Positions 6,831 to 36,700 of a DNA stretch of 64,000 bases are shown piece after piece; within the stretch, counting starts at the first letter, position 1, and every line of letters starts with the position of its first letter. The translations under genes were made by a program, and so were the position numbers. The stretch lies in IMG/VR virus record IMGVR_UViG_3300027706_000007, positions 1-64,000 of that record. One strand, 5' to 3'. The DNA is from a virus. Under the pieces are notes generated by a model that worked only from the letters and a program-made list of their open reading frames with translations, was not told the origin of the DNA and did no database searches.

Positions 6831-6887
6831 GGCGCTATAGAACCGGGGCTAACTATATAAATTTAATGTAGAAATTTTAGATTCGGT

Positions 6888-7785: not shown

Positions 7786-7871
7786 TAAAAAGCTTTCTGC
7801 GCTAACTTAAATTTAAATCTCTTGCAAAGCTAGTTGCATGATGGAAAAATGAGAAATGCATTATTTAAAAC

Positions 7872-8675
7872 TTACTGCGTTTTTGGCTTGAATTTCGGAG
7901 CGAAATTAGAAATTTTGTTTGGGTCGAGTGGAACATTAGGTTCGGGCGCGGTCAATTGACGTTCTTCTGGCTCCGTAGACATTTCAGATGGTTGCGCGGG
8001 CGCGTCATTAGTCTCTTTTTGCTCATCGCGCAAATCTGGGCGCAAATCATATATGTTACAGCAGCCATCAGGCATATCAGGAATATTTATAGCGCGACAC
8101 CAGTATCCGGTGGGACTATCATCTTTATGTAGAAAATATTCGCAACTTGCACAGTTGAAATGCCCGTTCCAATCTTCTTTACCCTTAAACTCTGGCAACT
8201 CGGCATAGCCATATTCTTCAGCTTGTTTTATGTAATCGCCGCGCCCCGTTTCAGTTAGCACTTTGCGCGTAGCCTTCTTTACATATTCCCCATATTTACC
8301 GCCCTTTTTGCTAGGTTTTTTTGAAGGTTCAATTTTATTTGTTGGAACTTTTTCTTTTGGTTCTGGTTCAGGTTCTTGAATCATACTAGACGAAGTGCTA
8401 CCCGGTGTGGGCGTAAATCCATAATTAACATCAGTATCCAGTCCCTCAGCAGCCGAAGTATCACCCATGCTTGAGACTACTGGCTCTTCTTCTTTCTTTT
8501 TGTTTTTATGATTTTGCTTAAAGTGCTCAGTGGCAATAGCCGCAGCTTCCTCAAGCGTGTTTGGGAAAGCTGAAAAATCGTCTTCATCACATCGAATTAC
8601 ATAGTCATCTGACGCATCTTTATGGAAATATATATGAACCGGCCCCAAAGAATTTAGCCGAACCAATGAAGGCAT
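7872..8675 (-). CDS. Acidic modular protein with a HiPIP-like Cys cluster
   Basis: CASC-x14-C-x11-CC near the C-terminus; Pro/Glu-rich linkers. Confidence 0.55.
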   Translation of the reverse strand: MPSLVRLNSLGPVHIYFHKDASDDYVIRCDEDDFSAFPNTLEEAAAIATEHFKQNHKNKKKEEEPVVSSMGDTSAAEGLDTDVNYGFTPTPGSTSSSMIQEPEPEPKEKVPTNKIEPSKKPSKKGGKYGEYVKKATRKVLTETGRGDYIKQAEEYGYAELPEFKGKEDWNGHFNCASCEYFLHKDDSPTGYWCRAINIPDMPDGCCNIYDLRPDLRDEQKETNDAPAQPSEMSTEPEERQLTAPEPNVPLDPNKISNFAPKFKPKTQ

Positions 8676-12670: not shown

Positions 12671-14299
12671 TCACTCATAGTTCGTAAACGCGATATATTG
12701 AGAAATATCATTTGAAATATCGAAGCGTACTAGCTCCCATCCAGTTAGAGCGAAACTAAGAGACATAAGTGTATCGTCAGTCATTCCGGTATCTTTTTTC
12801 CATAACTTCTTCCCAGTTGTTTCGTTTTGCTCCGGATAAACGGACATAAAATCACGAATAATTGACGTTCGTATCTCTTCATTTGGTTCATTATAAAATC
12901 GCACTTTATTTTTGGATAACATATCAAAAGTCTGGTCTATTATCCATGTTTTATCTGCGTAAATTAGAAGTCCCTGTGCCGTTGGCTCCGTTTTTATTGG
13001 CGTTCTAAATGAGCCGAGCCGAATTGTCGATAATTTCGACCCTATTCGTTTATAGAGGTCTGCATTCAGATAGAAGCCTTCTCCTTCATCTGCGATTACT
13101 GTAGTCACTGGAGTAGTTTCAATGAGTTGTAAAATGCGTTTATAATGTTCTGTCACATCAGGCACTGATATCCGTTCACAATTCAAAACATCAAAAGCCC
13201 AATCTCCTTCAAGAGTAGGTCGGGGCCTTATTAATACCCACGTTGTTGTACTTTTCTTTCCGCTGCCCCAATCTATGCCTGCGATGAGAATATCGCCAGT
13301 TTCAAATGCGTTACGAGGTAGCATGGGGTCGAAGAGACTCCACAAACCGGAGATTGTTATAGGATTTCCAACGCCTTCATAAAATTCGCCCATTACTTCA
13401 TTTAACCACTGCTGTTTTGACATAGTTTTGCGTTTCTCTTCGAAATCGCGCTCCGTGAGCCACACACCCAAACCGAGATACTGTGACAAATGATATCCCG
13501 AGAATACGGGGTCTTGGATATCATTTGTTGGAACCCATTTCCCATTGCGCCATTCTTTTTTATCGCTTAAATTCCAATATTCTTCATAGCGCGTCTTCGA
13601 AAGTTTTGGTGTACCTAAAATCCATAAACGATGCAATGAAGAGTGTGAAAGTACCTCTCGCGCAGCACCGAGCGCGTCCGCGTTTATGTCTTGGAACTCA
13701 TCAAGCACGAGCGCATTTGCAGAATAACCTCGTATCGCATCTAAATTTCCATATGCAGAATAAATGTGTATAGTTGAATCTCCCAGTTTGATGTTGTGCA
13801 CATTTGAATCACGTCCAAGAAGCGGTTTTAATTTTGGAGATTTCATTATAGTACGTAAAAGCCTTTCTTTACTGAAATATTTCGCTTTTTCTTGGTCGCT
13901 CGACGTGTATATGTAGAAGCCCGGATATTTTAGCGCGTGATATAAAAGCTGATTTACGATATATGTAGACATCTCGACCTGTCGCCCTTTCACGAGTACT
14001 ATATTTTGGGACGTATCATCATAAAGCGGAATAAGATATTCGCGCCCACGGAACCAATCGGCTTGTGTGAGTTCGCGTCCAGTGAGTCTATCATATTTCT
14101 CTGGTATGGCTACATTTTTAAGCGTAAAAATTGAAGGAGATGCTAAATCAAACTCTTCACTTAACTGTTCTGCATCTTTTAATAGCTTTTTCTGCTCTTC
14201 TTGCTTGGTTTGCTCTTCAAGTTTGGAAATTTTCTCGTCCAAGCGCTTAACCATGTAATTATACGCGTTGCTCACGCCCACTAATGAAAGCACGCACAT
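12671..14299 (-). CDS. terL: Terminase large subunit
   Basis: Deviant Walker A VKGRQVEMST, IRG, Walker B LVLDEFQD, motif III GTP, RNase-H-like GIDWG...DDTLMS. Probable start GTG 14275 or ATG 14254. Confidence 0.9.
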   Translation of the reverse strand: MCVLSLVGVSNAYNYMVKRLDEKISKLEEQTKQEEQKKLLKDAEQLSEEFDLASPSIFTLKNVAIPEKYDRLTGRELTQADWFRGREYLIPLYDDTSQNIVLVKGRQVEMSTYIVNQLLYHALKYPGFYIYTSSDQEKAKYFSKERLLRTIMKSPKLKPLLGRDSNVHNIKLGDSTIHIYSAYGNLDAIRGYSANALVLDEFQDINADALGAAREVLSHSSLHRLWILGTPKLSKTRYEEYWNLSDKKEWRNGKWVPTNDIQDPVFSGYHLSQYLGLGVWLTERDFEEKRKTMSKQQWLNEVMGEFYEGVGNPITISGLWSLFDPMLPRNAFETGDILIAGIDWGSGKKSTTTWVLIRPRPTLEGDWAFDVLNCERISVPDVTEHYKRILQLIETTPVTTVIADEGEGFYLNADLYKRIGSKLSTIRLGSFRTPIKTEPTAQGLLIYADKTWIIDQTFDMLSKNKVRFYNEPNEEIRTSIIRDFMSVYPEQNETTGKKLWKKDTGMTDDTLMSLSFALTGWELVRFDISNDISQYIAFTNYE

Positions 14300-14358: not shown

Positions 14359-16386
14359 ATGACTAAAATAATTAGAGAAATTAAACGCGAGACAAACGTA
14401 ACACAAACAACGAGTGGATTGGCAACTTACAATGGAGGGCCACTTTGGCAAACGGGATATAAATGGATAAATATATTTTGGGGTTCTTTCTGGAACGCGC
14501 CAAAAGATTTCACTACCGCACAAGTAGATAAGGCGGTCGCGGATATAGCAACAGACCACTCATACTGGGGAGGTTTACAGGAATATGGAGCATCTGGTGG
14601 AGATATGGGCTACGGTGTATTTGGTAATTCATATATAATTTCACAAGACCCTCCCACAACCATTGATGATAGTGCAATTGGGCCACAGATAAAACAGTGG
14701 GTTGTGTCCGGTACAGTTGCTGACGTAAATGAGAAAGGCGCTTACAACATCTTTTTCCCGCCCGGAGTTACAATAACGTTGCAGGGTTCGTCAAGCTGTT
14801 CCGTCTTTTGCGATTTTCATAACTTCTATAATGATGGCACTAAAAATTATTATTATACAGTTGAACCCTATCCGTGCACGCTTGGTTGCAATCAATGTAC
14901 GGTATCTGCATTTGATACGTTGACACAAGGACTTAGTGAGGAGATGTGTATTTTACCAGAAGAAATTTTGCTTGGTGATAATAAACCGATTTCAGAATAT
15001 GAAATAGGAGATAAAATTGTTGGAATGTCTGGATTGGATACAGTTATAGCTAAATTTAACAGACAATATGATGGAGAACTTATTTCTATTAAAGCACATG
15101 GTATGTTACCTATTATATGTACACCAAATCATCCAATTCTAACTATCGGGGGAATTACCCCAACAAATCATTCAAAACCAATAAGTTACTCTACACCAGA
15201 ATGGAAACATGCAGAATTATTGAAAGAAAAACATACAAACATTAGCGGGAATTATTTATTACTTCCTATAATAGAAGGGGATATAGAAGTTAAAGAAATA
15301 TCATTAGAAAAGTATTTTGAAAATACGGCGCTACTTAAAGCATTAACTATAACAGGAACAACAACACAATTTCCTCTTAATGAAGATACTGCTTGGTTTC
15401 TTGGCTTATATGTTGCTGAAGGCTCAGCAAATTTCAATGATGTTACTCTCGCTTTACATGAAAAAGAAATAGATATTGCAAATAAAGTAAAACTATTATT
15501 AAATAGCTTAGGATACAGAGTTACAATATCTCCAATTAAAAATACTCATGCAATAAGAGTATATATTGGTTCAAGGCATTTGTCTTCTTTCTTAGAAGAG
15601 TTCTGTGGAAAGGGAGCTTTACATAAAAAGATACCTGATTTCATCTTGTATCATAAGAATTTATCCTTAGTACGCGCATTTTTGAACGGATATATTGATG
15701 GTGATGGTTGCCGCTATGTTACCCGAAAGAAATATAAACAAATAATCGTTGAAACTGTCTCTAAAGTTCTAGCATTACAATTACAGTTAGCTTTTGCTCG
15801 ATTGGGGCAATTTTTAGCATTGAGAAAAGGAAAGAAAGGTAAGGAACAATATATTATGGGTCGCCTTTGTCATACACACGATTCTTATCAAGGCTTACTT
15901 TCTAACACAAGTAAAGTAAAGAAAGTAGATAAATATCTTATTTCGCCAATATTATCGATAAAAAGGATACCCTATAAGGGTCAAGTTCGCAACGTTGAAA
16001 CAACAACACACACATATTTAGTATCTAATGCAATAGTACATAATTGTGAGTTGGCTACTGATATGCAGCCCGGCTATGGTTGGGTAATAGGTAATGAAGA
16101 AATTTGCGATTATTGCGATTCCCACTTCGTTTGCCATCAAATCAACTCTGGAGAATATGTAAATGCGTGGTACAGTGGCAAATATAATACTTGTTGGACA
16201 CCAAACTGGCCTCCTTCGAGTCCGTCTCCGCCTCCCCCTTCAACATGCCCAATAGCCAAAATATTTACAGGTACGTATAATACCTTCGCGAAACTTCTTC
16301 ATCGTAAAACGCGATTATTTGCAGTTGTACCAGATGACGTAAAAAATGAAATAGAGAAAGACGATGATTGCGATTGCAATAAGTGA
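14359..16386 (+). CDS. Intein-containing Phi-1/EXORDIUM-like (HExxE-type) putative metallopeptidase
   Basis: Exteins: YNGGP..., IFWG, LQEYG, FFPPG, SCSVFCDFH, then SEEM|CELATD...GW...EICDYC (family consensus SHExxExxTDP...GW...EIGD.C). Confidence 0.7.
   Translation: MTKIIREIKRETNVTQTTSGLATYNGGPLWQTGYKWINIFWGSFWNAPKDFTTAQVDKAVADIATDHSYWGGLQEYGASGGDMGYGVFGNSYIISQDPPTTIDDSAIGPQIKQWVVSGTVADVNEKGAYNIFFPPGVTITLQGSSSCSVFCDFHNFYNDGTKNYYYTVEPYPCTLGCNQCTVSAFDTLTQGLSEEMCILPEEILLGDNKPISEYEIGDKIVGMSGLDTVIAKFNRQYDGELISIKAHGMLPIICTPNHPILTIGGITPTNHSKPISYSTPEWKHAELLKEKHTNISGNYLLLPIIEGDIEVKEISLEKYFENTALLKALTITGTTTQFPLNEDTAWFLGLYVAEGSANFNDVTLALHEKEIDIANKVKLLLNSLGYRVTISPIKNTHAIRVYIGSRHLSSFLEEFCGKGALHKKIPDFILYHKNLSLVRAFLNGYIDGDGCRYVTRKKYKQIIVETVSKVLALQLQLAFARLGQFLALRKGKKGKEQYIMGRLCHTHDSYQGLLSNTSKVKKVDKYLISPILSIKRIPYKGQVRNVETTTHTYLVSNAIVHNCELATDMQPGYGWVIGNEEICDYCDSHFVCHQINSGEYVNAWYSGKYNTCWTPNWPPSSPSPPPPSTCPIAKIFTGTYNTFAKLLHRKTRLFAVVPDDVKNEIEKDDDCDCNK
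14947..16044 (+). mobile_element. Intein with LAGLIDADG homing endonuclease (366 aa)
   Basis: Starts CILPEE; block B CTPNHP; LAGLIDADG motifs LGLYVAEGS and LNGYIDGDG; ends VRNVET..HTYLVSNAIVHN|C. Confidence 0.93.
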
Positions 16387-18454: not shown

Positions 18455-18949
18455 GTGAGTTACGTAACTCTTACACAGGGGTCTACCCAGAAACAGGGCG
18501 GAGGTTTAGGGTTTCCAATTTTTATTCAGCAATCAACACAAAATAATCCCAGCAACGATTTATTGCAGATTGTTTCCGATGTTGCATTAAATTACATTAT
18601 TTACGATATTAGAAATGTATATATTGCACAAATTCAGGGAATAAGTTATACATCTACACAAGGCCCATATACCGCTCAACTCCATTTAGCGCCTTACAAT
18701 ATACATTATCCGTCACTTATATATGTTCTAGTTCAAACTGCCGATTCGCATCTTAGATTTCCACAAATCAGTCCAGCATTACAAGTTTTTGGTGGCGATG
18801 TTTACAAATGCGTAATTGCATACAGAATGGCAAAGCCGCGCGGTGTATTAATGAATGTTGACGGACAGAGATTACTAGTTACAAGTTCAACTATGCCATC
18901 AATCTTCCTCGAATCGAGTGATACCTATCTCCTGACGGGCGGCGACTAA
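18455..18949 (+). CDS. Putative virion (neck/tail completion) protein
   Basis: Composition resembles the other structural genes; weak. Confidence 0.4.
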   Translation: MSYVTLTQGSTQKQGGGLGFPIFIQQSTQNNPSNDLLQIVSDVALNYIIYDIRNVYIAQIQGISYTSTQGPYTAQLHLAPYNIHYPSLIYVLVQTADSHLRFPQISPALQVFGGDVYKCVIAYRMAKPRGVLMNVDGQRLLVTSSTMPSIFLESSDTYLLTGGD

Positions 18950-20795: not shown

Positions 20796-21782
20796 ATGCC
20801 CCGTAGAGATGCAGATAAAGAATTAAAAGCATGGTTAAATAAAGTGGGTCATATAGGAGAAGAATATCTTTCGTTCTTTGAAGCTAAATCATATCCATGG
20901 AATAAGTGTATTCGCGACCAGATGAAGCGATATGGAAATAAAAAGACCGCGGAAAAGGTTTGCGGCTATATACGCGCTAAATATGGAAAACATGAAGATG
21001 CGCCCGATGATATTGAAAAAGAAGTATATGAATGTGTAGAAGATGGCTATGTTGGAAAATTTGAAGAAGTATCTGACCATATTTATAATATTCATGTAAA
21101 AGGCAAGAAGAAAGAAGAAGAATTAACATGTGAAAATTGTGGCTCTTCTGACAATGTACATTTAGACCCACATACCGACAAAGCCTTATGTCGTGAGTGT
21201 TATAATATTGTTCGGGGTAGATATGAAGAAGAGGAAGCCGAACCTAAAGTCAAACATCAAACTGTAGATAAGAGCGCGCTGGAGAATTTACTACATGATG
21301 ATTCCATTCAAGTATTATCATGGGTTCCCGTTGGTGAGTCTAGTTACAAAATATCATGGCGCGATAAAACGCCTGAAACATCAGTACTTAGTCATCCGAG
21401 ACGAGAAGACGAAGAAACCACCAAAAAAGAAGCTGCGCTCGTAATAGAAACGTGGGATAGCTTGAATCAGCTTATAAAAGACACAGTTAATGCGGTCTAT
21501 AAAGCCGAGTCCAACTTAACACAACCCGCTTTTACGCCCGCAACATTGGCACCTCCGCGTGCGCAGCCCGTACCAGAAGCAATGGTAGATACTGTTATAA
21601 ACGTCCCAAAGGACGAATATCCAACATTTCCAAAATCAATGTTCTTTGGCCCGGATTTCGATAAAATTGGAGATATCGTAAAAGATTTCAGAAAATACTT
21701 GATAGATATAGGCTATAATAACCCAGAGATATTGAAACAGTGGCTCGAACATGCGAAGAAAGCAGGCGCTGATTGGATGTAA
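20796..21782 (+). CDS. Modular acidic protein (putative head-associated)
   Basis: YPWNKCIRDQ..YG...AEKVCG module, CENC...CREC finger, and a domain shared with ORF 48405. Confidence 0.6.
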   Translation: MPRRDADKELKAWLNKVGHIGEEYLSFFEAKSYPWNKCIRDQMKRYGNKKTAEKVCGYIRAKYGKHEDAPDDIEKEVYECVEDGYVGKFEEVSDHIYNIHVKGKKKEEELTCENCGSSDNVHLDPHTDKALCRECYNIVRGRYEEEEAEPKVKHQTVDKSALENLLHDDSIQVLSWVPVGESSYKISWRDKTPETSVLSHPRREDEETTKKEAALVIETWDSLNQLIKDTVNAVYKAESNLTQPAFTPATLAPPRAQPVPEAMVDTVINVPKDEYPTFPKSMFFGPDFDKIGDIVKDFRKYLIDIGYNNPEILKQWLEHAKKAGADWM

Positions 21783-21826: not shown

Positions 21827-22186
21827 ATGCCAATTATATGTCAAACGCATCACGTGATTATAACAGATGATAACGCAGTAGACCATGAGAACCCTGAATG
21901 TGTCCTAATCTCAGCAGGTGGGTCGGTAATAGGAGCCTCGGGGGTTCAAGAACTTAAAAATACGCGTCCACCCGCTGAACTTCTGACCGAACAAAATAAA
22001 CCGTTAAACAATTCTGCTCAACCTCCGAAAGACCCGATAATCACTACACCCGGAAATGGGCCGATAGTAGCAAATAGTCAAACTGTAGCACCATCTACAG
22101 TACAAGAGCGTAAAGTTGAGATTGTGGGTCAATATATAGTAGACCCAAAAACGGGGAAATTAATTCCGATGAATCAAAAAACGTAA
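21827..22186 (+). CDS. Hypothetical protein
   Basis: Own TATA box; Pro-rich. Confidence 0.5.
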   Translation: MPIICQTHHVIITDDNAVDHENPECVLISAGGSVIGASGVQELKNTRPPAELLTEQNKPLNNSAQPPKDPIITTPGNGPIVANSQTVAPSTVQERKVEIVGQYIVDPKTGKLIPMNQKT

Positions 22187-22208: not shown

Positions 22209-22442
22209 TTGATGAGCGATATCTATAAGACTAACGTAACCTTTTACCAGAAAAGTGATAATTTACAACTTTTTATGGTAAAATCTGAGAATTCTCCGCT
22301 GTCATATATGGTAATTTTCAATGGAGACGAGAAAATCTGTAGTTGTCCAGACTATTTCTTTAGAAAAAATGAATGTAAGCACATAAAAAATGCTACTTTA
22401 TTTTTACAATTAGAGGATGCAATAACGGGGCTGCTTCAATAA
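22209..22442 (+). CDS. SWIM zinc-finger protein
   Basis: CSCPDY...CKHI. Confidence 0.8.
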   Translation: MMSDIYKTNVTFYQKSDNLQLFMVKSENSPLSYMVIFNGDEKICSCPDYFFRKNECKHIKNATLFLQLEDAITGLLQ

Positions 22443-23092
22443 AAGAAAGATTCCAAAGGTAGTGGGAGTAAATCTGATGGTGTTATTTTATTCGCGGCCA
22501 ACAGATAAGCGCGCGCGAGCAAATAATAAAATACGCCAATTGCTCGCGTGTTGAACGTGTTAAACGGAACAATGTAATCAACATGCTCCAAAATTGCGTT
22601 TGAATTGCAACCCGAGTACACAGGTATATGTTGTTTGCTCGCTTCGAGAGCTAGCCGCGCCTCATTTTTGAAATCTTCTTCAGTTATACTTACTGACCTT
22701 TGCGGATTAGCCATATGGAAAACTTCTGGTCTGCCGCGCATGATGTCCATTAAAAGAACTACGCCCGTGTTAGATGAGAGTTGTGGATTAGATAAAATCC
22801 CGGGCAAAACACGCTTAAAAACGGTGTTAACTCCGGTTAGCTGTTTGAATGAGTCTAGTGCGTTCTCCGCATTCGGATGGCTTGAATAAACAAGTACTTC
22901 ATTGGGATTATATTCGTTCAAAACTTTCCCGAGAAGATGTATTCTGCGCAAAATAAAACTGAGTGGAAATATATTCGCGCCATTAACCTGTTCAACATAC
23001 GGACGCATATATCGCGAAACACGAGGTGATGCTATATGCAATCCAAATTCACGTAACTTCTCTTCTGATAATATTTCTGTTATGGATGCCAA
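22436..23092 (-). CDS. rps2: Divergent archaeal-type 30S ribosomal protein uS2
   Basis: GLHIA (GxHIG), MRPYV, RVLPGILSNP (RFxPGxLTNP), EASKQHIPV, VDYIVPFN, YYLLAR, LPLPLESF. Lacks the bacterial coiled-coil insert. Confidence 0.88.
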   Translation of the reverse strand: MASITEILSEEKLREFGLHIASPRVSRYMRPYVEQVNGANIFPLSFILRRIHLLGKVLNEYNPNEVLVYSSHPNAENALDSFKQLTGVNTVFKRVLPGILSNPQLSSNTGVVLLMDIMRGRPEVFHMANPQRSVSITEEDFKNEARLALEASKQHIPVYSGCNSNAILEHVDYIVPFNTFNTRAIGVFYYLLARAYLLAANKITPSDLLPLPLESFFY

Positions 23093-23143
23093 TTTCTAGG
23101 AATCGTTTAAATAGACCCTTATAAAAAGTTTGTTAGAAATTTT
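23093..23143. promoter_or_regulatory. Overlapping divergent BRE/TATA promoters for uS2 and the Cas4-like gene
   Basis: tttaaata on + (~23106) and tttttataag on - (~23127-23118), each about 25-35 nt from its start codon. Confidence 0.6.
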
Positions 23144-23872
23144 ATGTTGACACACAGCGAGGTCGAAAAAAACGTAGAAGCTTTATTCATGGATAAAATG
23201 ATAAATTATGTCTCAGCCGATAGGCGCGGATTGCACGTATCAAATTTAGTATATTCATGTATGCGCAAAGGATATTGGGATATGGTGCGTGAAAGCACGA
23301 GCACAAATCCGGTTCGGTCACTTGACGAAGACCAAGTTCTTACATTTGCGCTAGGAAAGATGGTTCACGAAGTACCGATTACTGATGCACATGAAACACC
23401 ACTACAAATTAGCACACTAACGGGCACGACTGACGAGATTCTGAACAATGAAGATGGGAGCATTACAATTATCGATAAGAAAACTTGCACTACGCTACCG
23501 CTAAAACCTTATGAGCAGCATCTGAACCAAATCAAGTACTACGCGGTGATGCTTTATGAAAAACCGGAATATAAAGGCAAAGTTATGTGGGGTTGCGTAC
23601 TTTATATCCAGCTTGGAACAGACAAATCTAGCACTGGAAAACATATAAAAGCTTTCGCCTTCCCTATAGATGTAACAGAAACGCGCGAAGAGTTAATAAG
23701 AAAAATCTCAATTATGAATGAAGCGATGAAAACTAAAGTGCCTCCAGACAGTACTTATAGCTGGCTCTGTAATTATTGTGAGTGGTATACACCCTGTAGA
23801 TTACGAGATGCGAAAGATAAAAGATGGCGCGAGTTCTTTCCGCCTTCAGAACTCCCACCGGAAAACGAATAA
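23144..23872 (+). CDS. Cas4-like PD-(D/E)xK exonuclease
   Basis: N-terminal C (SCMRK), GTTD...IIDKKT, QIKYYA, C-terminal CNYCEWYTPC (Fe-S ligands). Confidence 0.85.
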   Translation: MLTHSEVEKNVEALFMDKMINYVSADRRGLHVSNLVYSCMRKGYWDMVRESTSTNPVRSLDEDQVLTFALGKMVHEVPITDAHETPLQISTLTGTTDEILNNEDGSITIIDKKTCTTLPLKPYEQHLNQIKYYAVMLYEKPEYKGKVMWGCVLYIQLGTDKSSTGKHIKAFAFPIDVTETREELIRKISIMNEAMKTKVPPDSTYSWLCNYCEWYTPCRLRDAKDKRWREFFPPSELPPENE

Positions 23873-25731: not shown

Positions 25732-27597
25732 ATGGCAACGGATACCGAGGAAAAGCAAAAGCGCTCATTTTTCGGAAATATTTCACGTTTATTTTCGAGC
25801 GCTCCTAAAAGCGAGACCACTCCTAGCACATTTACTGCGAGCTATAAACCACCAACGTGGTCACAATATGAACAGGCTGACCGAGGTGAAGCGTGGTGGA
25901 GACAATATGCATGGGAAGAATATGCTACAAAAACTCTCCCGGGTTTAGGTCTCGGATTCACAGTTTATCCATATATAGCTATTTGGGAAAAGATTTGGGG
26001 AGCCGTACCAACAGAAGATTACGGTAAATATAAGCAGCTATTTGTGCAAGACCCTCTAGTTGGCCAGACTATAATTTTACATTCGATTATGACACTGGGA
26101 CAGGGTTTTGATATTGAATATCCGCTCGACATGGTTAAACGGGATGTTGAAGCATTTTTCCATAGACACGACATTTTCAACTTGCTTAAAATCGTCGTTT
26201 CAAATCAGCTTCTATTCGGGAATGCGTATGTTGAAGTAGTTAGAACGTGGGTATGTCCCGAGACTGGCCATGACTTAGAAGCGCTGCGCGTAAGTTGGGA
26301 AATGGATTATAGTCCGGAAACTGGGAAAGGTGGCTATTGGTGGACTGACCGAATGGATGTCGCATATAAACACAATCTTTTGTATCCTAGTCACAAATTA
26401 GTAAATCCATATGGAGAAATTTTGCGTCTTCGGCCGCTTGACCCGAGCTATATGAGAGTGCGAAGAGATGCCTATGGGACAATTCTCGGTTATATACAGT
26501 ATTACGTCTTTCCTCTCGTAACTTTTCTAGCAGATGAGGTACTACATTTCCGCTGGTGGCCTTCATCGTGGACATATGAGAGCGTTTATGGAACATCAAT
26601 GCTAAGGCCAATTCTATTTTACGAAGAAGCAATTCGAAGTTTCGAAACTCAGATGGTGCAGGTTACAAATGTCTATCTAAAACCTTATTTCCTCGTTCAT
26701 GTTGGTGGCCCAAAAAATCAAGAAGCCACCGTTGAACAGTTCAATGCAATCAAACGCGCTTTTGAGAGTCAGCCGCCCGGCAGTAATATCTTCGTTCGTT
26801 CGGGCGCATTAATCGATGTAAAACCACTTGAAGCTCCAATTCAGCATTTGCCCGCGATAGAATTTTGGCTCAAATGGGCGCACAATATGCGATATTACGC
26901 GTTGATGGTTCCAAAAGCCCTCGTTGACCCGCAGGGTCTTAATCGTGCAACCGCGAGAACACTTGAGAATGCTTATTTCACATTTATATCAAATATTCGT
27001 TCATCTCTTAGCGCGCAACTAGAAAATCCGGAAGGCGGACTAATGGTGTTAATATTAAAATCTTTGTATGGGGAACTCGCAGACGAATTAATTAAGCAAT
27101 TTGGCGTTCCACGCATAATTTGGAAAGCATTACATCAAGAGAACATTCAAGATAAAATTGCGAATATTTCAGTTCTGTATGAAAAAGGTTTAGTTACATT
27201 TAATGAAGCGCGCGAATATCTCGGATGGAGACAACTTTCTCGTAGCGAGATACGCGAACTAACGGAAATGAGACTCGGAATGAGTGGTGGAGGCCCCGTT
27301 AGAAAGACTCCCAGCATGGCAGGGGGTTCTCTCGAAGGCCTAATTGAAACTGGCGCTCCTGAGATGGAACTTTCTTCACAAGAAGTCGAAGGAACTTCAC
27401 CACCAGCACCAGCAAAAGGAAAAATGGAAGCATTTAATTCGATAGAAGGCACATTTAATGCGATGCGGAACTATGACGTAGATTTATATATCGCTCACCT
27501 TTTAGACCAGATACAAAAAGAGATGGCAAAAGGTAATGTAGAGACAGCCAAATATCTACAAAATATAGTCGATGAAGAACTCGAAGATGAAGAATAA
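25732..27597 (+). CDS. Portal protein
   Basis: LLFGNAYVEV, LRPLDPSYMRVRRD.YG, EVLHFR, YGTS, VPKAL, NRATA, GLVTFNEAREYLG. Confidence 0.92.
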   Translation: MATDTEEKQKRSFFGNISRLFSSAPKSETTPSTFTASYKPPTWSQYEQADRGEAWWRQYAWEEYATKTLPGLGLGFTVYPYIAIWEKIWGAVPTEDYGKYKQLFVQDPLVGQTIILHSIMTLGQGFDIEYPLDMVKRDVEAFFHRHDIFNLLKIVVSNQLLFGNAYVEVVRTWVCPETGHDLEALRVSWEMDYSPETGKGGYWWTDRMDVAYKHNLLYPSHKLVNPYGEILRLRPLDPSYMRVRRDAYGTILGYIQYYVFPLVTFLADEVLHFRWWPSSWTYESVYGTSMLRPILFYEEAIRSFETQMVQVTNVYLKPYFLVHVGGPKNQEATVEQFNAIKRAFESQPPGSNIFVRSGALIDVKPLEAPIQHLPAIEFWLKWAHNMRYYALMVPKALVDPQGLNRATARTLENAYFTFISNIRSSLSAQLENPEGGLMVLILKSLYGELADELIKQFGVPRIIWKALHQENIQDKIANISVLYEKGLVTFNEAREYLGWRQLSRSEIRELTEMRLGMSGGGPVRKTPSMAGGSLEGLIETGAPEMELSSQEVEGTSPPAPAKGKMEAFNSIEGTFNAMRNYDVDLYIAHLLDQIQKEMAKGNVETAKYLQNIVDEELEDEE

Positions 27598-28440: not shown

Positions 28441-28580
28441 TGAGATTGTCTACATATATTCTTTCGCTCTATCCACGTTTTCCAATCTGCGCGCGCTTTT
28501 GCTAGGTGACACGCGCCACAAAGTTTGCGCGTTCGTTTACTGTTGAACGCACAACCACACCAAACGCACGTAAGTTTCAT
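28437..28580 (-). CDS. Small Zn-finger protein (47 aa, not in ORF track)
   Basis: MKLTCVWCGCAF...LCGACH...; ATGA overlap with the acetyltransferase stop. Confidence 0.65.
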   Translation of the reverse strand: MKLTCVWCGCAFNSKRTRKLCGACHLAKARADWKTWIERKNICRQSH

Positions 28581-29050
28581 AGCGCGCGAGTAAATAGATA
28601 CGCACTTTCGCCATCAGGATAGTATGCCGGAATAAGAATTTCAAGTTGCCAGCTAGCCTTACGATACACACGTTGTGCATTCTCATTAGATACGCGAACA
28701 TGTAGATAGGCTAATTTAAGATGAGCATTTTTCGCGGCAGATAAGAACGCATGAATTAAATTTGTCGCGATTCCTAATTTCCTATATCTCGTTTCAACTG
28801 CTATTGACGCGAGCAGTGCAGCTTCAAAATTTGCGTTTAGATAATTAAATTGCTGTTTAATCCCGAGTAAATAACCTAATACTTTATTACTTTTTTTATC
28901 TACCGCAACAAAACTTAGATGTGGAGGTTTGGTAAGCCAAACTTGCCAAAACTCGCGAGGATAGTGTTCGGGCATAGATTTTTCATTAATTTTAATCATA
29001 TCATCTAAATGGTTTAAAGTTGCTGGTATTATTATATACAAAACTTGCAC
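28577..29050 (-). CDS. ard1: Ard1/Naa10-type N-terminal acetyltransferase (GNAT)
   Basis: INEKSMPEHY (LPENY), SIAV..RYRKLGIA, LHVRVSNENA..Y and YYPDGESAY. Confidence 0.85.
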   Translation of the reverse strand: MQVLYIIIPATLNHLDDMIKINEKSMPEHYPREFWQVWLTKPPHLSFVAVDKKSNKVLGYLLGIKQQFNYLNANFEAALLASIAVETRYRKLGIATNLIHAFLSAAKNAHLKLAYLHVRVSNENAQRVYRKASWQLEILIPAYYPDGESAYLFTRAL

Positions 29051-29721
29051 AACATTTAAAAAGTGGGATATTTAAAGTTTTTCTAATTTTGATTATCGCA
29101 AATAAAAACGAACCCGAAAATTATAAAAGTTTGGCTGCGCAATTAGCAAATCCGGATGAAATAAAGATAGATTTCCTAATCGTGGGTGAAAGTAAAAAAT
29201 ATGCGATAGAGCGTAAAACTTTAGCCGATTTAATTGCAAGTCACCGTGACGGGAGAATATGGGAACAGTGCAGTTATTTAAGTGAGTTGCGCGAACAGGA
29301 TTATAAACCAATTATAATTATTGAAGAAATTGACCGCTGGAAAATTTTCAAATTCCAGCATGTAACACTCGCACAATTAGATGGTATATATATTGGAATC
29401 GCATCTTTCGGAATTCCTACTATTCGCGTTAATTCGGTTTCTGAATTTATTATGGTAATTAAAAAATTAGATGAAAAAGCAGGTAAAGAAACAAAATATG
29501 TCGCGCCAATATTTAAAGCTAAAAACAGAACCCCATATGAGATACGTGTAGATATGTTACGCCAATTAGAAGGAATTGGCCAAGTTACCGCGGAAAAAAT
29601 TTGGGAATACTGCAAAACATGGGAAAATCTTATAGAATGTATTATAGAAGAGGACGGTCAATTGATGGAAATTGTGGGGGCTAAACGTTTTAATCATTTG
29701 CGCGAAATTTTTGTTAGCTAA
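29020..29721 (+). CDS. xpf: ERCC4/XPF structure-specific nuclease with HhH (probable start TTG 29089)
   Basis: DF...IERKT..DL.AS..DGRIWEQ; HhH LEGIGQVTAEKI. Confidence 0.88.
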   Translation: MLVLLYTKLAQHLKSGIFKVFLILIIANKNEPENYKSLAAQLANPDEIKIDFLIVGESKKYAIERKTLADLIASHRDGRIWEQCSYLSELREQDYKPIIIIEEIDRWKIFKFQHVTLAQLDGIYIGIASFGIPTIRVNSVSEFIMVIKKLDEKAGKETKYVAPIFKAKNRTPYEIRVDMLRQLEGIGQVTAEKIWEYCKTWENLIECIIEEDGQLMEIVGAKRFNHLREIFVS

Positions 29722-30729: not shown

Positions 30730-33204
30730 ATGTCTAATAATCAGTCTCCTTATCCGTACGCACAAGTTCTTGAAGTAAATCAACCTTCTGGGTCACTTCC
30801 CCCTGAACAGCAACCACCTCAAAAAGAACCTCCCACAAGAGAGCCGTCTCCTGAACTGCCGCCAAAAGAGCCGCCAGAAAAAGAACCCGAACCAGAAAAA
30901 TCGTCATCATCGTTTGAGGTTCCGCGGAAAATAAGAATACCCGATAGGTTAGCGAATGATGTAAAAATTTTGGCGGAATATGCAATTAAGACTGATGGAG
31001 AAGCGGGAGGTTTCTTGGTAATTGGATTGCATGGAAATGTCGGGGTTATCTCAGAACAATTGGGAGAAAACCGCGAGATTGTGCTAAAACCGAATGAAAA
31101 ATTACATGAGGGAGAATTATATATAGGAACTGTTCACTCACACCCTGTATGCGTAATAGGAGATTTTGTTTTGATAGAAACGGAACGAGGTCGTATTCCT
31201 ATAAAGGATGTAAGAGTAGGAGATTCGGTATTATCATATGGTGGTGTTTATCGCAAAGTAATCGACAAGATAACTTTCCCATACAGAGGAAAACAAACAA
31301 CTGTGACAATTGATTTAAGAAAGCCGAAGGAACATAAGTTTCAAAAACTTACGACAACTTTCAACCACCCATATAGGATTTTTAGAGAAGGAAAAGAGCT
31401 TTGGGTACTTGCTGAAGAACTTAGAATAGGAGACGAAATATTTGTCCCGGAATATCTACTCAATTTCTGTCTAGTTTGTAAAAAACCGATAAATAACATC
31501 AGCCAATATTGTTCTAGAAAATGCCGTTTTATTCACAATTATAATCCAAAAAATCCAAGCGAAAAATGCTTTTATTGTGGAAAACAAATCTCTGGTCGCT
31601 ATCCATATAATAAAAAGTATTGTTCTTTGAGTTGCCACATGAAAGATGCTCATCAAAAAGGACTAGTTCCTATTCACAAGTTTGACAATTTTAATCCAGA
31701 ATTCCAAAGAAAAGCCAAATTAGCAAGATTCAAAACAGCAAAGGGAGGAAGTCGTTGGGAGCGCGTTGTTTTTGATTATTTAAAAAAGATGGGCGTGACT
31801 GGACTTGAGAAACAATATCCTGTTCAAATTGGAACGTATACTACCTATGCTGGAAAACGAACTATACCTAGATTCATTTTTATGGATATTGCTATTCCAG
31901 AACGAAAGATTGACATTGAGATAGACGGCGAATTATGGCACAGAATGAGAAAAGAAGAAGATGAACAACGAGATAAGAAGCTCGAAGAAATGGGCTGGAC
32001 AGTTATTCGAATTCCTGCTCGTCAAGTAGCTTCTAACGCATTTAGTGAAATTCTTGCTCCCTTATTTAACATCCCTCTTCTTGCAGACCCCCCAATTAAT
32101 TTTGTTAAAATACCCATATTGAAAGTTGAAACTAAGACAGCTTCTCATGCACATGCTATAGGATTAACAATAGAAGGAAATAACTATGATGAAAATTCGG
32201 TAGTAACTAACGGAATTCTAACTCATAACACAGATTTACAATCGACTGGCGACGTTATTAGTTTTCTCGCGGATGAAAAAGAGAAAGTAATGCTCGTTAC
32301 GGGCGCGGATAGTTCAATTAATATTTCATTCAAAACACAATTTACAAAAGAAGGCGATTTCTCACGAGATATACGCGAGCATTTCAAACAAAAAGATATG
32401 TTAGAAATGTCGAAAATATATGGATTTTTGTGGTATCGCGGAGAAAATTTCTCAACCGAATTGGAATTACAAACAAAAGAACTTGGCGAGTTAAAGTTGC
32501 AACCCATAGAAGAAACGTGGAATATAGAAGATTTGCTAGAAGCGCTCGATATTAAAGGCTCGCCCGAGTTGCCAAATGATTATTCAACAAAGAAGTATCC
32601 GAAGAAATCTAAGCAAGATGAATCGCGTGGAATGACTCAACTCGAATTAAAACATTATATGGATAACTCATTTAAATTGCTCTCGGATATTGAAGAAGGT
32701 TACGCTAGCGCGGGAGGATTTAGTAGAGATATGGCTACGCGGATAGCTAACACATTTCCTAAGTGGATAAATTCTCTCAATCGTGTTCTAGAAGGCGTTG
32801 ATGACCCCGAGTTATATAAGCGCGCGATAGAATTACTAGACCGAATACAAAATGTTTATGGGCTTGCGGTCGATACGCTTGGTGGAAAAACGATGGTCGA
32901 AGATTATAGCGATGTCGCGGAAAATTTGTTAACCAGATTACGTCCTAAACTTCAAAAACTATTTAATGAGCTAAATTATCTAGAGTCTATATACTCAAAA
33001 CAGGGCTATTTCGATTCTAAAGAGTTAAACTACATTCTGTCCGATTTTCCCGAAATGGTGGAGTTAATTAATAAATTGAATTTCGAGAAAATAGATAACG
33101 CGACCGCTTCAAAACTTTTTGAAGCAGTTGAACGCGCGTCAAGTCTTTATAATTTAGCACTGGCTCAAACACAAGAACGTGACCCATTAGTCGAAGAGAA
33201 ATAA
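30730..33204 (+). CDS. Intein-containing JAB/JAMM (MPN+) metalloprotease with Pro-rich N-terminus and two helical C-terminal repeats
   Basis: E in DGEAGG; after splicing HSHPV|TDLQSTGD = HxH...SxxD. Confidence 0.8.
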   Translation: MSNNQSPYPYAQVLEVNQPSGSLPPEQQPPQKEPPTREPSPELPPKEPPEKEPEPEKSSSSFEVPRKIRIPDRLANDVKILAEYAIKTDGEAGGFLVIGLHGNVGVISEQLGENREIVLKPNEKLHEGELYIGTVHSHPVCVIGDFVLIETERGRIPIKDVRVGDSVLSYGGVYRKVIDKITFPYRGKQTTVTIDLRKPKEHKFQKLTTTFNHPYRIFREGKELWVLAEELRIGDEIFVPEYLLNFCLVCKKPINNISQYCSRKCRFIHNYNPKNPSEKCFYCGKQISGRYPYNKKYCSLSCHMKDAHQKGLVPIHKFDNFNPEFQRKAKLARFKTAKGGSRWERVVFDYLKKMGVTGLEKQYPVQIGTYTTYAGKRTIPRFIFMDIAIPERKIDIEIDGELWHRMRKEEDEQRDKKLEEMGWTVIRIPARQVASNAFSEILAPLFNIPLLADPPINFVKIPILKVETKTASHAHAIGLTIEGNNYDENSVVTNGILTHNTDLQSTGDVISFLADEKEKVMLVTGADSSINISFKTQFTKEGDFSRDIREHFKQKDMLEMSKIYGFLWYRGENFSTELELQTKELGELKLQPIEETWNIEDLLEALDIKGSPELPNDYSTKKYPKKSKQDESRGMTQLELKHYMDNSFKLLSDIEEGYASAGGFSRDMATRIANTFPKWINSLNRVLEGVDDPELYKRAIELLDRIQNVYGLAVDTLGGKTMVEDYSDVAENLLTRLRPKLQKLFNELNYLESIYSKQGYFDSKELNYILSDFPEMVELINKLNFEKIDNATASKLFEAVERASSLYNLALAQTQERDPLVEEK
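31150..32229 (+). mobile_element. Intein with Zn fingers and a DUF559/Vsr-like endonuclease (360 aa)
   Basis: Starts CVIGD..IETERG; block B TFNHP; CxxC..YCSxxC twice; MDIAIP..KIDIEIDGELWH...RD..LEEMGWTVIRI; ends GILTHN|T. Confidence 0.9.
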
Positions 33205-33799: not shown

Positions 33800-36700
33800 T
33801 TGAGCCAAATCGTAAGCAGCCAAACAGCAGGTATCTACCAGCAAAATGGACAGGATGAACAGGTTCTAACTGGTAGCAGCCCCGGATTATCAATAAATAA
33901 TATTGCATTTAATAAACCAGTACAAGCAGGAAGTTTACTTGTGGTAGCTGTAACTGCTACATTACCTTTCGGAGGATTTCAAAATTACGCTTCTTCTATA
34001 ACTGATGCACTCGGTCTCTCTTGGTTTACAACCGAAGAGAGAACTAATAATACAGTCGCTAGTATATATTATGCATGGGCATCAGTTGGAGGTAACGAAT
34101 CTATGACAGTTGGATACAGCACAAATAACTCGGGTTATACGGCTTATGTTAGTTGGGAAGTTTATGAAATTCGTGGCGCATTAAATTATAATACAATAGG
34201 ACAAACAGGTAATGGAACCTCGCCACCGGCTGGTGTTGCGCAGGTTATTAATTATAATATAGGAGGTCTCTTAATATCTGCTACTGGATTATACGAACTC
34301 GGGGGTTTACCTACCCCAACTTTAGGTTTTACCACTGATAGAGTTGTTTCTTCATATAGTCTTATTCAACATAATATACCTTCTTTAAATGGTTCAACGC
34401 AATGTCTAGTTAATTTCCCTTCTTCTAGTACGCAATATTGGGCTAGTGCGGCAGTATTCTTCCCCGCAGGTATTCTACCGGTTTCTTCTCCAAATAATGT
34501 AGATTATACAAATCAAGTAGAGTTATTTAGTGATTTCACGATTCCTTCTAATGTTCTTAAAACAAATATTATAAACGGTCAACCAGATGATATGTATCTC
34601 TTTGCGGGTTGCTATACTTATCCGACACTAGTAAATGCCACAACAGCAAGTGACCAAGCTTCAGCATCAACCACATTATCTATATTATTACAACAGACTA
34701 CAGAACCGTGTGTAATAATTGCATGTGCGGTTACTAATGGTAGCGGAGTTTTTTTGAGTAGTACTTCGCTCGTATGGCAACAGCGTTTTGCAGATTCTAC
34801 AACGGGTTTATATGAATGGTACGCTATCGCCGATTCTCCACTATCTAATGAGATTATCACATTGACAACATCAAATGTATCTGATTCCTATTTACAAGCT
34901 ATTGCATTATATGGTGTTACTTCCGAATTCACACTATCTACTCCCGTCGAAACGACCTTAACTAGTGCAAGCAGCACTTTGAATTATTCTTCATCGGGAA
35001 ATGGAATGACAGTAATTTTTGTGTTTGATAGCGATACAAATGCGGGTATTTATGCGCCCGTAAATTACGGATATGTTACAGTTGCTGGTAGTTATGTAAA
35101 TCCATATTCTCAATTACGTTCATACATTGCTGCTACTGGCCCCGGTAATAATATTCAAGTACCCTTCTCTTTTTCAGGACAACAACTTTATGGTGTTCCA
35201 GCTTTAATAGATGGAATATTTATCGCTTCTCCATTTTTACAGATATCAGATACGTCGAATCAGACATGGAATGTCCGACTTGCAAAATTGGCTCCATTAC
35301 CAGACGCGAGCGAAACTAATTATACTCAGGCAGGTGATGGTTTGATGTTTTTTGAAATTTATACAATATTAACTTCAAATATTGTTCATAGTACTGTTAC
35401 TTTATCTTTACCCCACTTTAATCTTCATGGTTCCGGTTATAGTGAAGTATACGTATGGAGATTGCGTGGCGTTAATATTAGTAATCCTTTTGATACAGAT
35501 GCATCTCTAACTCAAATACAAGATTTGGGTGCAGTTCAGCCAACAATTACTTTTAGTACTATAAATTCTAATACTTTCGTTTTTCCTATATTTTTCAATG
35601 AACATCATAACGACCTTTTTGAATCTGTATCTTCTTCATCTTCTAATCCATTTTATACTATTATTGGAGATTTTTCTATGGGCGGATATACATTATTTTC
35701 TTCTTCTCAAAATAATGTAACATTTACAGCGAATGTTTCATCTATAGATTCCAGCTATCGTACTTTCATCGATGCCGTTGTTGGGAATGGCAATTTATCA
35801 GTGATTTCCGAAGGTTTTACCCAAATAAATAATGGAAATCCAATACCTTATTATATCACAATGCCTTTAACGACACAGCATTCTAATGAAGGCGTTGTTT
35901 TAGTAGCGTTAGCACAAGCCGATACGACTCCCACACAATTTTATGTACCACCGCCCCATTTAATAGTTGATACACTAAATACAAACTGGAATATAAGATT
36001 TGAAAAAACATCCCCGTTTTTCTTAAAAGAATTATGGACATATTCAACATCCATAATAACTAATGATATAATATCGTTTTATATTGAACCTAATGCTAGT
36101 TATATAGCTTTAGCAGCTATGACATGTATTAATACGCCTCCGACAGTTTTTGATAGTTCTTTTTCCAATCCTAATCTTACAACTACTATCAATTCGCAAC
36201 TCGCTTATAGTGGAGTGCCTGTATCATGTATAAAACCTCCTGCTACAGTGTTTTTATTAAGTCCTATTGGAGTTGATGGGGGATTTGACCCAAATGCGAC
36301 TTATTTTCCTAATACACCTCCTTTCTCAAGTGGCGGAGCATATTATATTGTTAATAGCGCATTTGAAAATGTGCCAATCGGGGGCGTAACATCGTTTTCA
36401 GATATATATTTTATCTTTAGCGACGTAATCTCCAATAATTATCCTCAAGTATCCGCGACCGGATTTCAGGTTGGCACTGACACAACAATGTTAGTTGTTC
36501 CTCAACAGCATAGTAATAGTTTTAATTTGTATGTATCAGGTATAGAAGGATTTGACCAGCCAGTTTCTATCGCGTATGAAATTGTGCCAATAGCAGGAAC
36601 TACAGCGCCATGGCAGGGGTCGATAACTTTTTCACCTTATCCGCCTTTACCTGCACCATATTATACAACAGTAACGGTAAACGCGGGTAATACTCCTCCC

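What the first reader, a model, noticed from the sequence alone, without database searches (positions are those of the whole stretch)
22436..23092. Virus-encoded, divergent ribosomal protein uS2
Seen: the ORF keeps the uS2 motifs in order (GLHIA, MRPYV, RVLPGILSNP, EAS..IPV, VDYIVPFN, YYLLAR, LPLPLESF). It lacks the bacterial coiled coil, so it is archaeal type. It has substitutions at usually invariant positions (GxHIG>GLHIA, RFxPGT>RVLPGI, NNKG>NTFN) and an insertion of about 20 aa after the conserved Asp. It sits between a SWIM gene and a Cas4-like gene, with its own promoter and no other ribosomal genes, so it is not a captured host operon. Known: viral ribosomal proteins are mostly small exchangeable ones (bS21, bL12). 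uS2 is a late-binding surface protein near the mRNA/anti-SD platform, and in E. coli S2 deficiency favours leaderless mRNA translation. I know of no described viral uS2 but cannot check this. Inference: it could swap into host 30S subunits to bias translation, act as a dominant negative, or be repurposed as an RNA-binding regulator.
Basis: partly seen in the sequence, partly recalled or inferred. Interest (0 to 1): 0.92.

Follow-up and report, generated by a model that had tools for sequence, protein, structure and literature searches.

The report
Archaeal virus carries ribosomal protein uS2
A roughly 94-kb tailed virus from soil and mine metagenomes, probably infecting ammonia-oxidiser-type archaea (Nitrososphaeria), carries its own divergent but intact copy of ribosomal protein uS2, shared with at least five related virus contigs; I found no report of a viral uS2 in the papers I could search.

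Summary
ORF 22436-23092 (-) encodes a 218-aa archaeal/eukaryal-type uS2 homologue. It scores above the Pfam PF00318 cut-off, matches TIGR01012 at E 1.5e-23 (below the equivalog cut-off), and its AF2 model fits archaeal uS2 at TM 0.80-0.88.

The contig is a real tailed virus with TerL, portal and PolB. About 40% of its genes have an archaeal TATA box around -30 from the start codon, the pattern of leaderless genes.

The gene is not a recent capture. Five other IMG/VR contigs (two closed by terminal repeats, TerL about 40% identical) carry homologues. With 11 metagenomic representatives they form one clade (100/93). That clade groups with Nitrososphaeria uS2 against the other archaea sampled (100/99).

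All 17 clade members have 16-34 residues in a loop that is exactly 8 residues in all 152 cellular sequences compared. dN/dS between two viral copies is 0.13. A RimI/Ard1-like acetyltransferase is conserved in the same viruses.

Function is inferred, not shown. My best guess is that the protein replaces host uS2 at the mRNA exit of the 30S subunit. Mizuno et al. 2019 searched with PF00318 and listed no uS2; papers on archaeal viruses report only L21e, bL19 and a few others.

First-reader notes elsewhere in this scan (e1-5997515, e1-5997505, e1-6000396) describe the same family on other DNA. Two tools (look-up of encoding contigs, complex prediction) were closed.

The parts
22436..23092 (-). Viral uS2 homologue, 218 aa, TTG start, stop included
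   Evidence: ORF and translation. PF00318 above cut-off. TIGR01012 E 1.5e-23. PDB archaeal uS2 E 6e-19. AF2 model pLDDT 87 with Foldseek TM 0.80-0.88 to archaeal uS2. The N-terminal 28 residues align with homologues, which supports the TTG start over the ATG at Met29 used in one public gene call.
22673..22744 (-). Clade-specific insertion, about residues 117-140, in the loop between the strand ending in Asp116 and the helix that carries the conserved Glu150-Ala151
   Evidence: Unmatched in the PDB phmmer alignments. pLDDT is below 50 for residues 120-136. This loop is 8 residues in all 152 cellular uS2 sequences compared and 16-34 residues in all 17 viral-clade members. In the relative from L002 the loop is modelled with high confidence, pLDDT 96-98.
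23119..23127 (-). TATA-like promoter box (TTTTTATAA) about 33 nt upstream of the TTG start; implies a leaderless or nearly leaderless transcript
   Evidence: Sequence read directly. The same spacing (motif start at -34 to -29) is the dominant class genome-wide, found before 62 of 153 ORFs.
28577..29050 (-). RimI/Ard1-like GNAT N-acetyltransferase. Kept alongside uS2 in the related viruses. A possible second translation-related gene; no link to uS2 is shown.
   Evidence: TIGR01575 rimI E 1.4e-16, 60.8 bits, below the equivalog cut-off of 86.4. Homologues at 33-36% identity in all four related virus records searched.
22209..22442 (+). Small convergent neighbour (77 aa) with a CxC...CxH motif; overlaps the uS2 stop by 7 nt. 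Context only.
   Evidence: ORF list. The SWIM Pfam hit is sub-threshold, E 0.078.
23144..23872 (+). Divergently transcribed Cas4-like PD-(D/E)XK nuclease. Context only.
   Evidence: PF12705 37.7 bits and PF01930 25.0 bits, both above cut-off. phrog_1706 E 2.6e-16.

Best explanation
This is a genuine virus-encoded paralogue of ribosomal protein uS2. An ancestor of a lineage of roughly 90-107-kb tailed archaeal viruses acquired it once, from a Nitrososphaeria (thaumarchaeal) type host, and the lineage has kept it under purifying selection since.

Most likely mechanism (inferred, not shown): the gene is transcribed from its own leaderless-type promoter during infection. [quoted passage not shown] Its enlarged loop and altered surface motifs change what that face of the 30S subunit does or binds. 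The virus's own genes are overwhelmingly leaderless, so the effect may be to favour viral mRNAs or to keep ribosomes active during host shut-off. The conserved viral RimI/Ard1-like acetyltransferase may belong to the same remodelling of the translation apparatus.
For: Shown:
- uS2 homology and fold.
- Viral context: an IMG/VR virus record with TerL, portal and PolB.
- Homologues in five other IMG/VR contigs. Four of these share 8-12 further genes with this virus within 10 kb of the uS2 gene, and their TerL is 39-41% identical. Two are closed by direct terminal repeats.
- The viral-type clade is monophyletic (bootstrap 100 / SH-aLRT 93). The split {viral clade + Nitrososphaeria} against the other archaea sampled has 100/99 (a quick tree gave 99).
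- dN/dS is 0.13 between the L002 and L003 copies, with dS 0.78.
- The near-invariant family residues are retained: R94, P97, G98, N102, E150, A151, D172, P176, N178.
- The loop is longer in 17 of 17 clade members and in none of 152 cellular sequences.
- The virus is dominated by leaderless-type promoters: 41% of ORFs have a TATA-like box at -35 to -28, and only 14% have an SD-like motif.
- The exact protein is recorded on 11 contigs, with longest contigs of 94,051 and 94,123 bp from different sources. The 5.2-kb stretch is held completely (share 1.00 or 0.99) by runs from four studies.

From the literature:
- uS2 and eS17 lie at the end of the archaeal mRNA exit chamber (PMC7531240).
- In E. 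coli, loss of bS1 and uS2 favours leaderless translation (PMC7531240).
- Two other virus-encoded ribosomal proteins, bS21 and bL12, do enter host ribosomes (PMC6375957).
Against: Nothing here shows that the protein binds a ribosome.

The window's copy keeps only 27 of the 48 positions that are at least 80% identical among cellular uS2 sequences. The cellular median is 44.5; other clade members keep 25-38. Two conserved Arg positions are lost across nearly the whole clade, and NNKG is NTFN in this copy.

It scores far below the NCBI equivalog cut-off, 83 against 211.5 bits.

The E. coli link between uS2 and leaderless mRNAs works through bS1, which archaea lack (my own knowledge).

Host assignment rests mainly on the uS2 tree and on habitat. 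TerL homologues in Nitrososphaeria genomes (28-32% identical) are barely closer than those of Bacillus phages.

For 11 of the 17 clade members the genomic context could not be fetched.
Confidence: 0.5

Rival explanations
1. Repurposed or decoy uS2. The protein keeps the fold but no longer works as a stoichiometric ribosomal protein. It could bind something that normally recognises uS2, such as a host assembly or quality-control factor, a defence protein, or the host rps2 mRNA leader. It could also act as a dominant negative that blocks maturation of host 30S subunits as part of host shut-off.
For: The divergence is strong: 27 of 48 conserved positions kept, two conserved Arg positions lost clade-wide, and altered GxHIG and NNKG loops. 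The new loop varies between members in length and sequence. The branches are long, 1.9 substitutions per site for the window copy. The score is below the equivalog cut-off.
Against: The near-invariant residues and the whole fold are retained. Selection is purifying. Other viral ribosomal proteins that have been tested do incorporate into ribosomes (PMC6375957). No partner other than the ribosome is indicated by any result here.
Confidence: 0.27
2. The uS2-like clade is really a second cellular copy from an unsampled archaeal lineage, and the viruses picked it up repeatedly. On this view the insertion is a cellular trait, not a viral one.
For: Eleven of the 17 clade members are known only as proteins. 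One of them, P0005, lies on a 161,867-bp metagenome contig, which is longer than the viruses seen here.
Against: All six members whose context could be read lie on related virus contigs. I saw no viral-type second copy in the listed matches from 201 sampled Nitrososphaeria genomes. All 160 fetched cellular and metagenome loci with uS2 lacked other genes of this virus.
Confidence: 0.08
3. A neutral passenger: a host gene captured by chance and now drifting or decaying.
For: It is the most divergent member of the clade, and its insertion is modelled as disordered.
Against: The reading frame is intact. The gene is conserved across viruses whose TerL is only about 40% identical. dN/dS is 0.13 in relatives. 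It is at most 37% identical to any other protein among 1.84 billion representatives, which rules out a recent capture.
Confidence: 0.04
4. An assembly chimera or cellular contamination of a viral contig.
For: read laying could not confirm contig continuity across the gene; the tool's filter left the contigs out.
Against: The same gene sits among homologous viral genes in five other contigs from other samples. The exact protein is recorded on 11 contigs from several sources. The whole 5.2-kb stretch is held by runs from four studies. Its promoter spacing matches the rest of the virus.
Confidence: 0.02

Closest known systems
Cellular archaeal uS2 (Rps2p; Pfam PF00318, NCBIfam TIGR01012), in particular that of Nitrososphaeria
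   Same: Same alpha/beta fold (TM 0.80-0.88). No bacterial coiled-coil insert. Shares the near-invariant R..PG..TN and D...P.N motifs and the E-A helix start. It is the nearest cellular relative in the trees.
   Different: At most 33% identical. Carries 8-26 extra residues in a loop that is invariably 8 residues long in cells. Has lost 10-23 of the 48 family-conserved positions. Is encoded on a virus, away from the conserved cellular gene neighbourhood of uS2. Scores below the equivalog cut-off.
Virus-encoded ribosomal proteins of bacteriophages (bS21, bL12, bS1, bL9, bL31, bL33 and others; Mizuno et al. 2019, PMC6375957)
   Same: A host-derived ribosomal protein gene fixed in a tailed-virus genome as a single stand-alone gene under purifying selection.
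   Different: Those are mostly small, loosely bound, exchangeable bacterial proteins. uS2 is a roughly 200-aa universal protein. It was among that study's 106 search profiles but no hit is listed for it. The host here is archaeal, and the viral copies carry a clade-specific structural insertion.
Ribosomal proteins reported from archaeal viruses: L21e in Hafunaviridae (PMC8651126), bL19 in a Bathyarchaeia virus (PMC10541130), and S6e/L15/L15e/L30 in archaeal proviruses (PMC13573593)
   Same: Archaeal tailed viruses or proviruses that carry a single ribosomal-protein homologue.
   Different: A different protein on the small subunit, at the mRNA exit. Here it is conserved across a deep viral lineage rather than seen in a few close isolates or in provirus calls whose boundaries are uncertain.
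Phage-encoded bacterial uS2 clade noted by this scan (AI note e1-5861713; unpublished, not checked by me)
   Same: A viral copy of uS2 that is conserved and altered on part of its surface.
   Different: That one is a bacterial-type uS2 in a large phage, and its changes lie at the bS1-docking surface. Archaea have no bS1 (my own knowledge). It appears to be an independent acquisition.

Membership tests
Ribosomal protein uS2 (Pfam PF00318) | Sequence match above the Pfam gathering score | tested here: met
   38.1 bits against 26.1. Also above the cut-off in all four related virus records searched.
Ribosomal protein uS2, archaeal/eukaryal equivalog (NCBIfam TIGR01012) | Score above the curated equivalog cut-off of 211.5 bits | tested here: not met
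   83.3 bits, E 1.5e-23. It is a homologue, but not an equivalog by NCBI's criterion.
Ribosomal protein uS2 | The uS2 alpha/beta fold | tested here: met
   AF2 pLDDT 87 and pTM 0.85. Foldseek to 9fhl_B and 9e71_BB: E about 3e-16, TM 0.80-0.88. The relative from L002 has pLDDT 93.8.
Ribosomal protein uS2 | Near-invariant residues: the R-x2-P-G-x2-T-N loop, E-A, and D-x3-P-x-N | tested here: met
   R94, P97, G98, N102, E150, A151, D172, P176 and N178 are all present; T101 is Ser.
Ribosomal protein uS2, archaeal/eukaryal type | Family-typical G-x-H-I-G-T and N-N-K-G loops, and an 8-residue loop between D-P and E-A | tested here: not met
   The window copy has GLHIAS and NTFN. The loop is 16-34 residues in the viral clade and 8 in all 152 cellular sequences.
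Ribosomal protein uS2 | Encoded in the conserved cellular gene neighbourhood of uS2 | tested here: not met
   The gene stands alone between viral genes. No other virus ORF matches the flanks of 80 cellular loci. Synteny around the gene is conserved among Nitrososphaeria loci.
Ribosomal protein uS2 | Physical component of the small ribosomal subunit | not testable with these tools
Virus-encoded ribosomal proteins | Gene lies on a bona fide viral genome and is not contamination | tested here: met
   Virus record with TerL, portal and PolB. Homologues in five related virus contigs, two closed by terminal repeats.
Virus-encoded ribosomal proteins | Purifying selection on the viral copy | tested here: met
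   dN/dS 0.13 for L002 against L003. For the window's own copy no close variant with DNA was available, so this is shown for the clade only.

The most novel reading that the evidence does not exclude
A lineage of archaeal viruses builds virus-specialised ribosomes. [quoted passage not shown] It replaces the host protein, perhaps together with a viral N-terminal acetyltransferase, and shifts initiation toward the virus's leaderless mRNAs or protects ribosomes from host shut-off. This would be the first case of ribosome reprogramming in Archaea by replacement of a universal small-subunit protein.
Probability: 0.25. Interest if true: 0.85.

Novelty: new member of a known kind. Interest (0 to 1): 0.62.

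Why it matters
Virus-encoded ribosomal proteins are known, but mostly as small, exchangeable bacterial proteins. In archaeal viruses only a few scattered cases have been reported.

This one is a universal, roughly 200-residue small-subunit protein that sits at the mRNA exit. It is kept as a conserved gene in a deep lineage of archaeal viruses and carries a structural insertion that none of the cellular copies compared has.

That gives a concrete, testable handle on two questions. Do archaeal viruses reprogramme ribosomes? What does uS2 contribute to mRNA selection in Archaea, where the initiation of leaderless mRNAs is still not understood?

It also gives a phylogenetic link between an uncultured group of soil viruses and Nitrososphaeria, the class that contains the ammonia-oxidising archaea.

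Tried and rejected
The contigs carrying P0003-P0007, P0009, P0014, P0021 and P0043 could therefore not be read.
The planned test of viral uS2 against Nitrososphaeria eS17 (alignment A6) was not run.
- Single-protein scans of IMG/VR with the window protein, P0005 and P0158 found nothing. The 11-sequence alignment A2 was too diverse to scan with.
- The word-index search of 5.8 billion proteins found only the protein's own cluster.
- Read laying placed a single contig piece that ends before the gene, and the tool says its filter drops contigs. It gives no evidence either way on continuity.
- No RNA holder is listed for the stretch, so nothing can be said about expression.
- BFVD holds no viral structure of this fold; the best TM is 0.45.
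- PHROGs has no family for the protein.
- TerL searched in 401 Nitrososphaeria genomes gave 23 genomes with matches, at only 25-32% identity in those listed. That is barely closer than Bacillus phages, so it is not usable as host evidence.
- The protein atlas gave only a weak hint: the nearest cluster is mostly Thermoproteota.
- No tRNA genes in the genome.
- I looked for papers linking archaeal uS2 to ribosome hibernation. The aRDF and Sri papers give uS2 no such role in archaea.

Full report
**The observation.** The ORF at 22436-23092 (minus strand) is intact, 218 codons long, and starts with TTG.
- It matches Pfam Ribosomal_S2 above the gathering score (38.1 against 26.1 bits).
- It matches the archaeal/eukaryal model TIGR01012 at E 1.5e-23. 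The bacterial model TIGR01011 reaches only E 1.5e-6. The TIGR01012 score of 83 bits is far below the equivalog cut-off of 211.5.
- phmmer against PDB sequences puts archaeal uS2 chains first (9fhl_B, E 6e-19).
- An AF2 model built on a 91-sequence alignment has pLDDT 87 and pTM 0.85. Only residues 120-136 are disordered.
- Foldseek places the model on archaeal uS2 from Saccharolobus, Pyrobaculum, Pyrococcus and Methanosarcina ribosomes at TM 0.80-0.88.

**Start codon.** One public gene call starts at Met29. Residues 8-28 align with the N-termini of homologues, so the TTG start is the better one.

**The contig is a virus.** The window is the first 64 kb of a 94,123-bp IMG/VR virus record.
- It encodes a large terminase (12671-14299), a portal (25732-27597), a family B DNA polymerase (56557-58644), an Mre11-like phosphoesterase, a Cas4-like nuclease and a Hef/XPF-like nuclease.
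- A crude gene call gives 153 ORFs with enough upstream sequence to score. Of these, 62 have a TATA-like motif starting 35-28 nt before the start codon, and only 21 have an SD-like motif. This is the pattern of archaeal leaderless transcription units.
- The uS2 gene follows it, with TTTTTATAA at 23127-23119.
- The genome has no tRNA genes.
- None of the virus's other ORFs matches anything in the 8-kb flanks of 80 cellular uS2 loci. The gene is therefore not part of a captured operon.

**The gene is conserved in a viral lineage.** An exhaustive HMMER search of 1.84 billion cluster representatives found 186 hits. The best is only 37% identical. The top hits align end to end and share an enlarged loop.
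- A profile scan of IMG/VR found homologues on four virus contigs of 91-107 kb. A second scan found a fifth, of 37.5 kb.
- Within 10 kb of the gene, the first four share 8-12 other genes with the window's virus. These include homologues of window ORFs 21827-22186, 20796-21782 and 18455-18949.
- Their TerL is 39-41% identical to this virus's.
- Two of the records are closed by direct terminal repeats, and one is classed as a provirus.
- dN/dS between the L002 and L003 copies is 0.13 at dS 0.78.
- The exact window protein is on record on 11 contigs from JGI, NCBI, ENA and Logan. The longest are 94,123 and 94,051 bp.
- The surrounding 5.2 kb is held completely (share 1.00 or 0.99) by soil (2017) and mine (2024) metagenome runs from four studies.

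Chimerism, contamination and pseudogene decay are therefore all unlikely.

**Origin.** A motif-restricted scan of one genome per GTDB species returned only cellular loci. The best, at 33% identity, are Nitrososphaerota loci with conserved gene order around the gene.
- In a careful IQ-TREE analysis (78 rows, LG+C20+F+G4 by PMSF), the 17 viral-type sequences form one clade (bootstrap 100 / SH-aLRT 93).
- All the other archaea sampled (Thermoprotei, a few Euryarchaeota, DPANN) form the opposite side of a 100/99 branch. The viral clade therefore groups with Nitrososphaeria. A larger quick tree gave 99 for the same grouping.
- Where the clade sits within Nitrososphaeria is only weakly resolved (85/55 and 54/85).
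- Sampling outside Thermoproteota and DPANN is thin, and the viral branches are long.
- I saw no viral-type second copy in the listed matches from 201 sampled Nitrososphaeria genomes.
- The soil and mine provenance fits a Nitrososphaeria host. So does the promoter-to-start spacing, which matches Nitrososphaerota loci rather than Thermoprotei loci. Both are soft evidence.
- TerL gave no usable host signal.

Some genomes in the class-level tallies are flagged unpublished: G134, and G237, G289 and G333. No tree row and no specific claim rests on them.

**What is unusual about the protein.** In all 152 cellular uS2 sequences in my alignment, the loop between the conserved D-P and the E-A that starts the next helix is exactly 8 residues. 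In all 17 viral-clade members it is 16-34 residues.
- In the L002-type protein AF2 models this loop with pLDDT 96-98, as an ordered coil. In the window protein it is longer and of low confidence.
- Forty-eight columns are at least 80% identical among cellular sequences. Cellular proteins keep a median of 44.5 of them, viral-clade members keep 25-38, and the window copy keeps 27.
- The near-invariant positions are kept: R94, P97, G98, N102, E150, A151, D172, P176, N178.
- Several positions typical of archaeal and eukaryal uS2 have changed across all or nearly all of the clade. W190 is Tyr or Phe in 16 of 17 members. Two conserved Arg positions are lost in nearly all. The GxHIGT and NNKG loops are loosened.
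- From my own knowledge of the bacterial protein, these loops lie at the C-terminal edge of the central sheet, the face that docks bS1 in E. coli. I could not map them onto an archaeal 30S here.

**A second conserved gene.** A first-reader note (e1-6012651) pointed to an Ard1/RimI-type acetyltransferase at 28577-29050. I confirmed the family hit (TIGR01575, E 1.4e-16, below cut-off). I also found homologues at 33-36% identity in all four related virus records searched. Its co-conservation with uS2 is shown. A functional link is not.

**Mechanism.** A review (PMC7531240) places uS2 and eS17 at the end of the archaeal mRNA exit chamber. It also recalls that E. coli ribosomes lacking bS1 and uS2 favour leaderless mRNAs. 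Tested viral bS21 and bL12 enter host ribosomes (PMC6375957).
- The fold and the invariant residues are retained, selection is purifying, and the virus is almost wholly leaderless. On that basis I rate incorporation at the uS2 site, giving virus-modified small subunits, as the most likely mechanism (about 0.5).
- A decoy, dominant-negative or repurposed role is the main rival (about 0.27). The loss of many conserved positions supports it.
- The remaining rivals are a cellular paralogue sampled by viruses, a neutral passenger, and a chimera. All are minor.

**Novelty.** Mizuno et al. 2019 listed PF00318 among their 106 search profiles but reported no uS2 among 14 viral ribosomal proteins.
- For archaeal viruses, the papers I found report L21e (PMC8651126), bL19 (PMC10541130), and S6e/L15/L15e/L30 in proviruses (PMC13573593).
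- A 2025 survey of Nitrososphaeria viruses does not mention a viral ribosomal protein in its main text.
- The 2026 jumbo-cyanophage set has no uS2.
- BFVD has no viral structure of this fold.
- Within this scan, first-reader notes on other genomes describe the same family. Their quoted insertion sequences match my loci L005 and L002. A follow-up agent also reported a separate, bacterial-type phage uS2 clade (e1-5861713), which I did not check.

I class this as a new member of a known kind (virus-encoded ribosomal proteins), with a distinctive structural variant.

**Limits.** No RNA run was listed.

Noticed in passing
window 14359-16386 (+): A 675-aa ORF carries two LAGLIDADG_3 stretches (Pfam E 7e-15), which suggests an intein or homing endonuclease inserted in a larger protein. 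A first-reader note (e1-6012653) reads it as an intein.
   Followed up: no
window 30730-33204 (+): An 824-aa ORF has a DUF559/Vsr-like endonuclease domain at residues 384-436 (Pfam E 2e-6). First-reader notes read it as an intein inside a JAB/JAMM protease.
   Followed up: no
G000 genome ends (window 1-360 and the last 100 bases of the 94,123-bp record): The first 100 bases recur at offset 255, so the head holds a direct or tandem repeat. Bases 116-175 of the head match the last ~100 bases of the record at 98-100% identity. The contig may therefore break inside a repeat, and the genome may be more complete than CheckV's 68%. An independent assembly of 94,051 bp has nearly the same length.
   Followed up: partly
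whole G000 genome: TATA-like motifs pile up 34-29 nt before start codons (62 of 153 ORFs) and SD-like motifs are rare (14%). The virus is built almost entirely of leaderless transcription units.
   Followed up: yes
window 33800-40186 (+): A very large ORF of 2128 aa follows the structural genes. Not annotated here.
   Followed up: no
window 29020-29721 (+): A Hef/XPF-type nuclease homologue (NF010337, E 5e-14). Its start overlaps the start of the RimI/Ard1-like gene on the other strand.
   Followed up: no
L006-L011, L013 and L015, about positions 6720-7915: In one group of Nitrososphaerota genomes, about 1.2 kb separates the small ORF upstream of uS2 from the uS2 gene, and nothing there matched the reference loci. 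In L069 the two ORFs are 13 bp apart. This could be an extra gene or element inserted in the otherwise conserved cluster.
   Followed up: no
G206 (the record holding L005), IMGVR_UViG_3300021476_000423: This uS2-carrying relative is classed by IMG/VR as a provirus. Its original flanks, if retrievable, would name the host directly.
   Followed up: no
Nitrososphaeria genomes G139, G196, G229, G334, G373 and others (L196-L201): Of 401 sampled Nitrososphaeria genomes, 23 hold TerL homologues. Those listed are 25-32% identical to this virus's TerL. They are presumably other proviruses or virus contigs placed in the bins.
   Followed up: no
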